Shown here piece after piece: positions 56,490 through 56,694 of a stretch of 64,000 nucleotides of DNA. This stretch comes from Escherichia coli. Lineage in GTDB: Bacteria; Pseudomonadota; Gammaproteobacteria; Enterobacterales; Enterobacteriaceae. A program made the translations under genes and the position numbers. The stretch is taken from assembly GCF_029227855.1 (NCBI RefSeq), contig NZ_CP074356.1, one strand, 5' to 3'. Position 1 is the first letter of the stretch. Every line of letters starts with the position of its first letter. Under the pieces are notes generated by a model that was not told where the DNA came from, did not search any database, and saw nothing but the letters and a program-made list of their open reading frames with translations.

Positions 56490-56525
56490 ACCCCGTTTGT
56501 TGGCACCAAGCGGGGTTTTGTGTTT
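56490..56525 (+). terminator. Hairpin terminator between endolysin and Rz
   Basis: CCCCGTTTG-TTGGCAC-CAAGCGGGG followed by TTTTGTGTTT. Confidence 0.5.
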
Positions 56526-56694
56526 CCTGACTCCGGAAAAGTCAAAGGAGAAAGTGTGTTTGATTTTAGCAAACTGATTCGGGAGATTCGAGTGATGGCT
56601 GAAAAATTATCCACCTGGAAGTTCATTCTTATCTGGCTGGTGTTTGTGATTATGGCCTCTGGTTATTTCATCGGTCAGATACGCTGGTGGTGAA

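What the first reader, a model, noticed from the sequence alone, without database searches (positions are those of the whole stretch)
56490..56694. Terminator and a 45-codon membrane-peptide ORF between endolysin and Rz
A hairpin terminator follows the endolysin. It is followed by a GTG-initiated ORF with a good RBS (AAAGGAGAAAGTG) encoding a small hydrophobic peptide (…[25 protein letters not shown]) that ends 1 nt before the Rz ATG. This is an unusual extra element in an otherwise canonical R-Rz-Rz1 arrangement.
Basis: seen in the sequence. Interest (0 to 1): 0.4.

Follow-up and report, generated by a model that had tools for sequence, protein, structure and literature searches.

The report
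Antisense-gated small membrane peptide cassette
The hairpin and the 45-codon gene between the phage endolysin and Rz are real and form one conserved, mobile unit that probably also makes a short antisense RNA, so it resembles an undescribed type I toxin-antitoxin-like cassette sitting inside phage late operons.

Summary
Hairpin 56487-56519, SD AAGGAG, GTG 56556 and stop 56693 (1 nt before the Rz ATG) are all present. The ORF is a real gene: dN/dS is 0.12 against Salmonella phages, and it matches PHROG 6632 (function unknown). About 41 clusters of 42-54 aa relatives exist. The full gap element is in 870 of 5426 complete E. coli genomes, so it is common rather than unusual.

The interpretation needs revising. 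The hairpin is not simply the endolysin's terminator. It travels with the ORF, 35-50 nt upstream of the start codon, in lysis, baseplate, head and other contexts, and it precedes other small tail-anchored ORFs too.

Codons 1-20 have almost frozen synonymous sites. They overlay a minus-strand extended -10 promoter (TGCTAAAAT, 56571->56563). Its predicted transcript of about 75 nt covers the start codon and SD and ends at the same bidirectional hairpin.

Best model: a late-operon cassette for a tail-anchored membrane peptide, gated three ways: by an upstream terminator that Q-modified polymerase reads through, by an SD-sequestering stem-loop, and by a cis-antisense RNA. This is type I TA-like, with HokW/SokW of Sp5 as the nearest precedent.

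No transcript, toxicity or lysis data exist. The antisense RNA and the function are inferred.

The parts
56397..56486 (+). Conserved spacer after the endolysin stop (the R 3' region). It belongs to the R module, not to the cassette.
   Evidence: It is shared with 933W-type Stx phages, which then diverge at about query position 86-95, and partly with Salmonella phages. No Rfam family matches it. The 17-codon ATG ORF inside it is not conserved in other alleles.
56487..56519 (.). GC-rich hairpin with an A-run before it and a T-run after it: a bidirectional intrinsic-terminator-like element and the left end of the cassette.
   Evidence: 13 pairs with a 7-nt loop; it folds on both strands. It is conserved with compensatory changes in E. 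coli, Salmonella, Citrobacter, Edwardsiella, Pantoea and metagenomic relatives. It always lies 35-50 nt upstream of the ORF start.
56523..56551 (+). Stem-loop UUUCCU-GACU[CCGGAAA]AGUC-AA-AGGAGA, which sequesters the Shine-Dalgarno sequence (AAGGAG, 56545-56550). On the minus strand the same stem would be stem-loop 1 of the predicted antisense RNA.
   Evidence: MFE folds of 51 leaders show the T-tract plus stem pairing with the SD. The consensus helix CCUUG/CAAGG has 3 of 4 pairs with compensatory changes.
56556..56693 (+). 45-codon gene (GTG start, TGA stop) for a tail-anchored inner-membrane peptide: an N-terminal amphipathic helix followed by one TM helix ending in RWW.
   Evidence: PHROG 6632, E 1.2e-29, full length. 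PGAP calls it WP_000459345.1. dN/dS is 0.12 against Salmonella. In codons 21-45, pN/pS is 0.33 with saturated pS. A profile search finds 41 clusters. AF2 predicts helices 4-17 and 20-44 with pLDDT 82.
56595..56693 (+). Possible internal start giving a 32-aa form. ATG is codon 14, preceded by GGGAG (56581-56585) at a 9-nt spacing.
   Evidence: M14 is ATG in 18 of 18 diverged members, and E10 is always GAG, so a GGAG is always present 9 nt upstream. Several gene callers annotate the 32-aa form. This is an inference, not shown.
56563..56571 (-). Predicted extended -10 promoter element TGCTAAAAT on the minus strand, inside codons 3-6 of the ORF.
   Evidence: A TGnTAnnAT-type element ends at +7 (+4 in L089, +6 in L096) in 8 of 10 diverse members and in 53 of 57 distinct leaders. 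The codons it overlaps show no synonymous variation: GAT 16/16, TTT 12/12, AGC 17/17, AAA 17/17. Where Ser changes to Ile (AGC to ATC), the TG is kept. Unrelated ORFs behind the same leader carry TATACT ending at the same +7.
56586..56591 (-). Weak -35-like hexamer TCGAAT (TCGCAA in most relatives), 17 nt from the -10. An A/T-rich UP-like stretch lies at 56601-56609.
   Evidence: The rare Arg codon CGA is kept in 16 of 18 members, TTG in 9 of 10, and GAA, AAA and TTA are kept at codons 16-18. The promoter reading is an inference.
56480..56557 (-). Predicted cis-antisense RNA of about 75 nt. Its 5' end lies at about the start codon. It is complementary to the start codon and the SD, forms one stem-loop, and ends at the hairpin plus U-run.
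   Evidence: It follows from the position of the promoter and of the minus-strand terminator. A covariance model of this unit finds it upstream of every family member and of other small ORFs. No transcript data are available, and no Rfam family matches.
55863..56396 (+). Endolysin R (phage lysozyme) with a hydrophobic Gly/Ala-rich N-terminus of SAR type. It is context for the finding.
   Evidence: PF00959, E 4e-24, and phrog_7. The SAR character is inferred from the sequence.
56695..57159 (+). Rz i-spanin, with Rz1 o-spanin embedded at 56915-57097. Its ATG lies 1 nt after the small ORF's stop, and the TGGTGGTGA that ends the ORF is SD-like.
   Evidence: PF03245, E 1e-52, and PF06085, E 5e-20. 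The junction is identical in all 80 IMG/VR loci.
51729..52550 (+). Antiterminator Q of the same prophage. It supplies the terminator-resistant late transcription that would read through the hairpin.
   Evidence: PF03589, E 6e-54. STnc100 lies at 53648-53837 and the S21-type holin at 54955-55170, both downstream of Q.

Best explanation
The 56487-56693 segment is one mobile cassette inserted into the Q-dependent late operon between R and Rz. It encodes a 45-aa peptide, and possibly also a 32-aa form. The peptide is tail-anchored in the inner membrane, and three layers keep it off until late lytic growth.

1. A bidirectional intrinsic terminator lies at the cassette's 5' edge. Only antiterminated (Q-modified) late transcription should enter.

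2. A stem-loop pairs the terminator's U-tract and a CCU(U)G motif with the Shine-Dalgarno sequence. The start codon is a weak GTG.

3. A cis-antisense RNA of about 75 nt is transcribed from an extended -10 promoter buried in codons 3-6. It is complementary to the start codon and SD and ends at the same hairpin.

The architecture is that of a type I toxin-antitoxin locus without a sense promoter of its own. When late transcription floods the locus, the peptide is made. By analogy with HokW of Sp5, I infer that it perturbs or depolarises the inner membrane. That would help trigger the pinholin/SAR-endolysin pathway, and its translation would feed ribosomes into Rz.

Shown here: the ORF is real and under purifying selection; the hairpin, stem-loop and ORF form one conserved unit; there is a nucleotide-level constraint over codons 1-20.

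Inferred: the antisense RNA itself, the toxicity, and the role in lysis.
For: Coding:
- dN/dS is 0.12 against SPN3UB and FSL SP-016, with differences by codon position of 14/5/20.
- pS is 0.78 against pN 0.25 in codons 21-45.
- PHROG 6632 matches at full length.
- A profile search finds 41 clusters sharing the motif SKLIRELRxMxEKLPxWRF followed by a TM segment.
- AF2 predicts two helices.

One unit:
- A hairpin with a U-run lies 35-50 nt upstream of the start in members that sit in unrelated contexts. These are a TA island (L089), head genes (L096), next to a pRha-type gene (L097, pRha/ORF11CD3 domains), the baseplate operon (L105), a GH108/DUF2514 lysis cassette (L104) and an unknown context (L093).
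- A covariance model also hits L006 at 72 bits, which was not in the training set. There the leader precedes a different ORF. It also hits three tandem copies in L089.
- Covariation: 99.1% of cells paired, 8 of 13 pairs compensatory, 0 of 500 shuffles as high.

Antisense promoter:
- TGnTAnnAT ends at a fixed position in 8 of 10 diverse members and 53 of 57 distinct leaders.
- Synonymous diversity is 0.19 in codons 2-20 against 0.55 in codons 22-43 (Mann-Whitney p = 1.4e-4). It is zero at GAT, TTT, AGC and AAA. The rare CGA (16/18) and the non-preferred GAG (18/18) are kept.
- All variable bases fall on promoter-tolerant positions.
- Two other ORF types behind the same leader carry TATACT ending at the same +7.

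Context:
- Q is present upstream.

Precedent:
- hokW-sokW of Sp5 assists lysis and phage release (PMC8621323).

TA-like behaviour:
- L089 has tandem triplication, each copy with its own promoter-like sequence, among type II TA genes.
Against: - No transcript, TSS, Ribo-seq, toxicity or lysis data were available, so the antisense RNA is purely predicted.
- The -35 is weak (3 of 6).
- In the window's allele the hairpin is more stable on the + strand (-19.9 against -16.6 kcal/mol). Across 51 leaders there is no strand bias (32 against 19).
- The synonymous constraint could partly reflect AU-rich, unstructured initiation regions for the GTG start, or the internal SD plus ATG at codon 14.
- No sense promoter belongs to the cassette in the window, so it is not an autonomous TA.
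- There is no similarity to any Pfam, NCBIfam or PADLOC family, or to any known type I toxin.
- No Rfam family matches.
- A + strand terminator inside baseplate or head operons of phages not known to antiterminate is awkward for layer 1.
- Many copies sit far from lysis genes, which weakens a lysis-specific role.
Confidence: 0.5

Rival explanations
1. The plain reading. The hairpin is an ordinary + strand terminator or attenuator (or an mRNA-stabilising hairpin) within the late operon. The small ORF is an accessory lysis protein, such as an antiholin-, releasin- or spanin-regulator-like factor, translated from the late mRNA with no antisense RNA involved. On this view, the frozen synonymous sites reflect translation-initiation constraints and a dual start.
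For: - The ORF lies directly upstream of i-spanins of at least two different families: PF03245 in E. coli, Salmonella and Citrobacter, and DUF2514 in Edwardsiella. In L112 the downstream ORF looks like an i-spanin by eye but was not scanned.
- Other small TM ORFs (phrog_4906, phrog_1115) occupy the same slot.
- The stop-to-ATG junction suggests translational coupling to Rz.
- The hairpin in the window is more stable on the + strand.
- An internal SD plus an invariant ATG at codon 14 recalls holin dual starts.
- From my own knowledge: P2 LysA and Mu gp25 are precedents for extra membrane proteins in lysis cassettes.
Against: - Most diverse members are not in lysis cassettes. They sit in baseplate, head, tape-measure or TA-island contexts.
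- Preference for AU-rich initiation regions does not explain AGC 17/17, CTG 16/17, CGA 16/18, or retention of the C in ATC.
- It does not explain why unrelated ORFs behind the same leader carry a -10 hexamer at the same +7.
- It does not explain why the A-run upstream of the hairpin is part of the conserved unit.
Confidence: 0.28
2. A moron-type accessory gene whose product serves the lysogen or the late-infected cell in some other way. Candidates are superinfection exclusion, abortive-infection defence, or cross-silencing of related phages by the antisense RNA. On this view the position next to Rz is only a permissive insertion site.
For: - Presence is patchy and mosaic, with breakpoints exactly at the cassette edges (query positions about 86-95 and about 156).
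- The cassette occurs in many different operon positions and phage types.
- It sits among type II TA genes in L089.
- The leader is nearly identical between prophages, so an antisense RNA could act in trans.
Against: - No sense promoter lies in the cassette in the window, and the terminator upstream would prevent expression in the lysogen.
- The cassette is always co-oriented with, and tightly packed against, the next late gene (gaps of 1-16 nt in most members).
- There is no hit in PADLOC.
Confidence: 0.17
3. The ORF is spurious. The region would then be only non-coding RNA (terminator, leader, sRNA) or decayed sequence.
For: - The ORF is small and uses a non-ATG start.
- Most phage records leave it unannotated.
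- An overlapping nucleotide-level constraint exists.
Against: - Length and frame are preserved from E. coli to Edwardsiella, Pantoea and metagenomic relatives.
- dN/dS is 0.12.
- Synonymous sites are saturated while amino acids are conserved in codons 21-45.
- SD plus start codon is conserved.
- The antisense 95-aa ORF at 56339-56626 has no family and runs through the hairpin.
Confidence: 0.03

Closest known systems
hokW-sokW of Sakai prophage Sp5 (Hok/Sok-type type I toxin-antitoxin in a lambdoid Stx phage; PMC8621323)
   Same: Both have a small inner-membrane peptide in a lambdoid prophage, and a cis-encoded antisense RNA over the translation-initiation region (predicted here). In Sp5 the toxin rises on induction and assists lysis and phage release, which is the role I infer here.
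   Different: There is no sequence or Pfam similarity to Hok. The TM segment is C-terminal (tail-anchored) rather than N-terminal. There is no mok-like leader ORF and no sense promoter of its own. The cassette is embedded co-directionally in the late operon, with its terminator shared between strands. The same window carries a separate genuine sok hit at 49234-49404.
Chromosomal type I TA loci with 5'-overlapping antisense RNAs (symE/symR, ldr/rdl, ibs/sib, zorO/orzO)
   Same: Shared features are a hydrophobic peptide under 60 aa, a short antisense RNA with its own terminator covering or adjoining the RBS, a structured leader hiding the SD, and tandem duplication in some genomes (three copies in L089).
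   Different: This is not a member of any of those toxin families, since Pfam, NCBIfam and Rfam give no hits. The antisense promoter lies inside the toxin's first codons. In most copies the sense transcript is supplied by a phage late operon.
Accessory membrane proteins of phage lysis cassettes (holin/antiholin dual-start pairs such as S107/S105 and S21 71/68; P2 LysA; Mu gp25 releasin)
   Same: Shared features are a location between endolysin and spanin, a small membrane protein, and a possible dual start (GTG at codon 1 and ATG at codon 14) giving two N-termini.
   Different: There is a single TM helix with essentially no periplasmic or charged C-terminal tail, and no homology to these proteins. 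The cassette already has an S21-type holin with its own dual start. Most family members lie outside lysis cassettes.
Phage morons (promoter-gene-terminator inserts between conserved late genes, e.g. lambda bor/lom, HK97 gp15)
   Same: Both are optional inserts at a conserved gene junction, with mosaic breakpoints at the edges and a terminator-type hairpin at one border.
   Different: The hairpin is on the 5' side of the gene. No sense promoter was found, and the only promoter-like element points backwards.

Membership tests
PHROG 6632 (phage protein family of unknown function) | Significant full-length match to the family profile | tested here: met
   E 1.2e-29, residues 1-45 against profile positions 1-45 of 45. 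Distant members also match.
Intrinsic (Rho-independent) terminator | GC-rich stem-loop immediately followed by a U-run | tested here: met
   13-bp stem with a 7-nt loop and tail TTTTGTGTTTCC on the + strand. The stem on the - strand is followed by TTTTTACTTTTATT. Termination efficiency in either direction was not measured.
Type I toxin-antitoxin system | Small (under about 60 aa) hydrophobic, membrane-targeted protein | tested here: met
   45 aa, with residues 22-42 hydrophobic. AF2 predicts a helix at 20-44. The feature is conserved across the family.
Type I toxin-antitoxin system | Antisense RNA that base-pairs with the toxin mRNA | tested here: inconclusive
   There is a conserved minus-strand extended -10 at a fixed position, plus a terminator and frozen synonymous sites. 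No transcript evidence exists, and the strand test was neutral.
Type I toxin-antitoxin system | Toxicity on overexpression, rescued by the RNA | not testable with these tools
   Requires expression experiments.
Type I toxin-antitoxin system | Self-contained locus with its own toxin promoter | tested here: not met
   No sigma-70-like sense promoter lies between the R stop and the ORF in the window (and by inspection). Only the L089 copies have a promoter-like TTTACA-17-TATCAT upstream.
Known type I toxin families (Hok/Gef, Ldr, Ibs, TisB, ShoB, ZorO, DinQ) and their RNAs (Sok, Rdl, Sib, IstR, OhsC...) | Profile or covariance-model match | tested here: not met
   There are no Pfam or NCBIfam hits. 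Rfam gives nothing at gathering threshold, and the best hit is ohsC at E 6.4.
Holin / antiholin | Match to a holin family, or holin topology (one or more TMDs plus a charged cytoplasmic C-terminus), as the cassette's hole-former | tested here: not met
   There is no holin Pfam or PHROG hit for the ORF. The C-terminus is just RWW. A separate S21-type holin (PF04971, E 9e-33) is present at 54955-55170.
Spanin (Rz/Rz1 or u-spanin) | Periplasmic coiled-coil domain, or lipoprotein signal with lipobox | tested here: not met
   The ORF has no periplasmic domain and no lipobox. Canonical Rz and Rz1 follow it.
Moron | Own promoter and downstream terminator; expressed from the prophage | tested here: not met
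   The terminator is upstream, and no sense promoter was found. Expression was not testable.
Anti-phage defence systems (PADLOC) | Match to a defence-protein model | tested here: not met
   0 families at E up to 1.

The most novel reading that the evidence does not exclude
The hairpin, SD stem-loop and backward-facing promoter form a portable regulatory 'socket', an antisense-RNA gate. It carries interchangeable small tail-anchored peptides (PHROG 6632, phrog_1115 and the ...AIRWW paralogues) into the late operons of unrelated phages.

Because the leader is nearly identical between co-resident prophages, the antisense RNA of one prophage could silence the peptide of another prophage or of a superinfecting phage. 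Through translational coupling it could also silence that phage's spanin. That would be RNA-based cross-control of lysis between phages.
Probability: 0.15. Interest if true: 0.75.

Novelty: new member of a known kind. Interest (0 to 1): 0.5.

Why it matters
H-19B-type Stx phages and roughly one in six complete E. coli genomes carry this element in the slot between endolysin and spanin. Another one in seven carry different small membrane ORFs in the same slot. None of these ORFs has been studied, as far as the searches made here could show.

If the model holds, three things follow:
- It adds an uncharacterised, widespread type I-TA-like family.
- It identifies an additional regulated membrane component of Stx-phage lysis, which is relevant to the timing of toxin and phage release.
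- It gives a clean example of a promoter, a start codon and an N-terminal coding region sharing the same 60 nt. That overlap is directly testable with silent mutations.

If the model fails, the element remains a well-conserved small late gene with a translationally repressed leader, which is ordinary but worth annotating.

Tried and rejected
- Rfam, at gathering threshold on the whole window and at E up to 10 on 56300-56760, found no family in the gap. The best hits were rimP leader at E 0.078 and ohsC at E 6.4, both noise. Rfam on 8 related loci also found nothing.
- Pfam, NCBIfam and PADLOC gave no family for the ORF or for the alternative small ORFs.
- Literature searches by accession, by PHROG id, by peptide strings and by several keyword sets found no paper on this ORF or RNA. 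The known prophage sRNAs checked (Esr41, Pas sRNAs, STnc100) lie elsewhere, between Q and the holin.
- K-12 Qin has rrrQ overlapping rzpQ with no gap, so K-12 Ribo-seq data cannot help.
- The 95-aa antisense ORF at 56339-56626 has no family and spans the hairpin, so I rejected it.
- The 17-codon ORF at 56424-56477 has its start and frame lost in other alleles, so I rejected it.
- The hairpin at 56427-56464 seen in the MFE fold is not conserved in Salmonella.
- The minus-strand promoter-like site CTGACC-18-CATAAT (56678->56649) is not conserved in Salmonella, so I rejected it in favour of the extended -10 at 56571->56563.
- A strand-of-function test, using the MFE of each hairpin on both strands and wobble counts, was inconclusive.
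- Searches for a sense promoter in 56397-56555 found none.
- The genome-contig scan returned only 5 loci.
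Full report
**1. What is there**

The window is a lambdoid prophage late region, 100% identical over the gap to E. coli strains such as UTI89, S88, APEC O1 and ATCC 11775. The gene order is:

| Feature | Coordinates | Evidence |
|---|---|---|
| Antiterminator Q | 51729-52550 | PF03589, |
| tRNAs and STnc100 | 52694-53837 | |
| S21-type holin | 54955-55170 | PF04971, |
| YdfR/DUF1327 | 55175-55519 | |
| Minus-strand phrog_2411 ORF | 55485-55757 | |
| Lysozyme R | 55863-56396 | PF00959, |
| 298-bp gap | 56397-56694 | |
| Rz | 56695-57159 | |
| Rz1 | 56915-57097 | |

- the hairpin at 56487-56519;
- the SD AAGGAG at 56545-56550;
- GTG at 56556;
- a 45-codon ORF ending TGA at 56693, 1 nt before the Rz ATG.

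**2. The ORF is a real gene, and a common one**

- It matches PHROG 6632 (unknown function) over its full length, at E 1.2e-29. PGAP calls it a hypothetical protein, WP_000459345.1, in some genomes.
- The whole gap is present at 80% coverage or more in 870 of 5426 complete E. coli genomes. It is also in H-19B, CP-1639, TL-2011c and many Stx1, Stx2a and Stx2c phages, where it is mostly unannotated.
- Salmonella phages SPN3UB and FSL SP-016 carry the gap at 71% nt identity. They have the same 45 codons, a GTG start and the same stop-1nt-ATG junction. Differences by codon position are 14/5/20, and dN/dS is 0.12.
- A profile search of 1.8 billion representatives finds 41 clusters of 42-54 aa proteins. 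They share D[FI]SK[LI]IRE[LI]RxMxEKLPxW[KR]F followed by a hydrophobic stretch that often ends [IV][RK]WW.
- AlphaFold2 with that alignment gives helix 4-17, a break, then helix 20-44, with pLDDT 82. This is an amphipathic cytoplasmic helix plus a single tail-anchoring TM helix.
- Pfam, NCBIfam and PADLOC give nothing.

**3. The hairpin belongs to the ORF, not to the endolysin**

Mosaic breakpoints in other phages fall exactly at the cassette edges:
- 933W-type phages share only gap positions 1 to about 90 (the R 3' spacer) and then carry ant.
- PhiR12_2 shares positions 1-156, that is the spacer, the hairpin and the leader, and then has a different ORF.

Distant family members sit in unrelated places:

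| Locus | Context |
|---|---|
| L089-91 | Between type II TA genes upstream of the terminase |
| L096 | Between a Mu-F-like head gene and the scaffold gene |
| L097 | Next to a pRha-type gene (pRha/ORF11CD3 domains) |
| L105 and many IMG/VR loci | Between a gpV-like spike and the next baseplate gene |
| L128 | Upstream of a tape-measure gene |
| L104 (Edwardsiella) | Between a GH108 endolysin and a DUF2514 i-spanin |

In all but the most distant member (L098), a GC-rich hairpin flanked by an A-run and a T-run lies 35-50 nt upstream of the start codon. A small stem-loop (consensus CCUUG-N7-CAAGG) follows it and overlaps the SD.

RNAalifold on 26 diverged leaders predicts both helices, with 8 of 13 pairs showing compensatory changes. 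Pair counting gives 99.1% paired cells and a covariation score of 0.329 against 0.180 in shuffles, with 0 of 500 shuffles reaching it. Slid controls collapse.

A covariance model of this unit gives two further results:
- It hits PhiR12_2, which was not in the training set, at 72 bits. There the unit precedes a phrog_1115 ORF.
- It hits three tandem copies in L089, which precede two kinds of small ORF ending ...AIRWW.

So the hairpin, leader and start region form a portable unit, and the small tail-anchored ORFs behind it are partly interchangeable.

**4. A second signal is written over the first 20 codons**

Among 18 diverged 45-codon members, synonymous variation differs sharply along the ORF:

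| Codons | Synonymous variation | Detail |
|---|---|---|
| 1-7 | Essentially absent | GAT 16/16, TTT 12/12, AGC 17/17, AAA 17/17; only L7 varies (CTG 16/17) |
| 9-20 | Low | GAG 18/18 although GAA is the common codon; rare CGA 16/18; TTA 15/17 |
| 22-43 | Near saturation | 0.5-0.8 |

The means are 0.19 against 0.55 (Mann-Whitney p = 1.4e-4), and pS is 0.30 against 0.78. Amino-acid changes do occur in the constrained half, so recent transfer does not explain the pattern.

Read on the minus strand, codons 3-6 spell an extended -10 promoter. In the window it is TGCTAAAAT, 56571->56563. Its hexamer ends at +7 of the ORF in 8 of 10 diverse members and in 53 of 57 distinct leaders.

Every base that varies falls on a promoter-tolerant position: the n of TGn, hexamer positions 3-4, or outside the hexamer. 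TG, T-12, A-11 and T-7 never change, even where Ser (AGC) becomes Ile (ATC).

The rest of the constrained stretch fits the same promoter:
- The conserved CGA/TTG codons give a weak -35 (TCGCAA; TCGAAT in the window, 56591->56586) at a 17-nt spacing.
- The conserved GAA-AAA-TTA codons give an A/T-rich UP-like stretch.
- The constraint therefore ends about where a promoter would end.

There is also independent support. The phrog_1115 ORF in PhiR12_2 and the second ORF type in L089 have unrelated N-terminal codons, yet both carry TATACT on the minus strand ending at the same +7.

The predicted transcript starts at about the start codon (56555-56557). It is complementary to GTG and AAGGAG, forms the stem-loop, and ends at the hairpin. 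On that strand the hairpin is followed by TTTTTACTTTTATT. The RNA would be about 75 nt.

No Rfam family covers it. No paper in the library mentions the peptide or its accessions. The known prophage sRNAs near lysis genes (STnc100, Pas, Esr41) lie elsewhere.

**5. Further overlapping features (inferred)**

- Codons 9-10 always contain GGAG, and codon 14 is always ATG, 9 nt later. A 32-aa product from 56595 is therefore plausible alongside the 45-aa product, and some gene callers pick it.
- The antisense RNA would cover only the upstream start.
- The ORF's last codons, TGG TGG TGA, are SD-like for the next gene. That gene starts 1-16 nt after the stop in most members, up to about 50 nt in a few, whatever the gene is.

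**6. How it most likely works**

In the lysogen, three things keep the peptide off:
- The terminator stops any unmodified polymerase coming from upstream.
- The SD is buried.
- The antisense RNA, if made, blocks any leak.

After induction, Q-modified polymerase (Q is present) reads through. Sense transcription then runs head-on into the antisense promoter, and the peptide accumulates late.

I infer that a tail-anchored hydrophobic peptide made at that time perturbs the energised membrane. That is the signal that triggers pinholins and releases SAR endolysins, according to established knowledge of phage 21-type lysis. HokW/SokW of Sp5 was shown to assist lysis and phage release in this way (PMC8621323).

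This last step is the weakest. Many family members are in head or baseplate operons, so the function may be late-stage but not specific to lysis.

**7. Weak points**

- There are no expression data of any kind.
- The -35 is weak.
- The window's hairpin is more stable on the + strand. Across leaders there is no strand bias.
- The wobble-pair asymmetry in the alignment is partly an alignment artefact.
- Constraints from translation initiation and from the dual start could account for part of the synonymous signal.
- The cassette lacks a sense promoter in the window. It is therefore 'type I-TA-like', not a demonstrated TA system.

**8. Comparison and novelty**

The ORF family is catalogued but uncharacterised. 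The element works like a type I TA locus or an antisense-gated late gene, but it matches no known toxin or RNA family. I file it as a new member of a known kind. Its unusual twist is that the antisense promoter lies inside the first codons and the terminator serves both strands.

It is not an 'unusual extra element' in population terms:
- 870 of 5426 genomes have it.
- 762 have the alternative pair of small ORFs in the same slot.
- 933W-type phages have yet another 44-aa TM ORF directly upstream of Rz.

**9. Verdict**

| Question | Verdict |
|---|---|
| Observation | Confirmed |
| ORF is real | about 0.95 |
| Hairpin plus ORF form one unit | about 0.9 |
| Antisense RNA exists | about 0.6 |
| Membrane-toxic, lysis-assisting role | about 0.3 |
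| Interest | 0.5 |

Noticed in passing
L006 (Escherichia phage PhiR12_2) 2575-2985: The same hairpin and SD stem-loop leader (covariance model, 72 bits) precedes a different tail-anchored 60-aa ORF (phrog_1115). A 43-aa TM ORF (phrog_4906) follows it, and then Rz. This pair of ORFs is fully present in 762 of 5426 complete E. coli genomes. A minus-strand TATACT ends at +7 of the 60-aa ORF.
   Followed up: partly
L007 (Stx2a_F403, 933W-type) 3851-3985: A 44-aa single-TM ORF (MISDKLITLVKSLCVLVGISF..., phrog_4906, unknown function) lies between the antirepressor gene and Rz and ends 7 nt before the Rz ATG. So 933W-type Stx phages also carry an unstudied small membrane ORF directly upstream of the i-spanin.
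   Followed up: partly
L004 (Salmonella phage SPN3UB) about 2396-2503; also L005: An extra hydrophobic ORF of about 35 codons (MSKRDVSALCFLMAAAVAISGNDGWGWLIFAGIIIL) starts at the ATGA that overlaps the lysozyme stop. It is inserted ahead of the conserved R 3' spacer and is unannotated.
   Followed up: no
L089 2610-5560 (prophage in assembly GCA_900156195.1): There are three tandem copies of a unit of about 350 nt. Each unit has a promoter-like TTTACA-17-TATCAT, a first terminator, a leader, the cassette hairpin, and then a small TM ORF ending ...AIRWW. The copies are interleaved with ParE, RelB/YafQ and HicAB-type type II TA genes. The array looks like a set of autonomous type I-TA-like loci.
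   Followed up: partly
window 49234-49404 (+): Rfam finds a sok antitoxin RNA at 100.8 bits, so the same prophage region also carries a classical hok/sok-type type I TA locus.
   Followed up: no
window 55485-55757 (-): A 90-aa ORF on the opposite strand (phrog_2411, unknown function; annotated as DUF1823-containing in PhiR12_2) sits inside the lysis cassette between ydfR and R. Its 3' end overlaps the end of ydfR.
   Followed up: no
window 56397-56486: The 90-nt spacer after the R stop is conserved across R-bearing E. coli phages, whether or not the cassette follows it, and partly in Salmonella phages (core AGAATATTT...CACGCGGGCGGATAACA.GAAATCC). No function is assigned and no Rfam family matches.
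   Followed up: partly
window 43550-43601 (-), 53648-53837 (+), 52694-52948 (+): DicF RNA, STnc100 RNA and two tRNA genes lie in the prophage. STnc100 and the tRNAs lie between Q and the holin, the position where Stx phages carry stx.
   Followed up: no
window 3258-18192: Outside the prophage late region, Rfam finds a cobalamin riboswitch (4408-4582), STnc230 (3258-3341, -), EFASI RNA (16543-16670, -) and a C4 antisense RNA (18104-18192, -). There are also four tRNA hits with identical scores at 8804, 11213, 13034 and 37972.
   Followed up: no
L104 (Edwardsiella ictaluri) 3139-3601: The DUF2514 i-spanin downstream of the cassette matches only profile positions 64-160 and has no N-terminal TM segment in frame. 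It is either a decayed gene or a start that the ORF listing missed.
   Followed up: no
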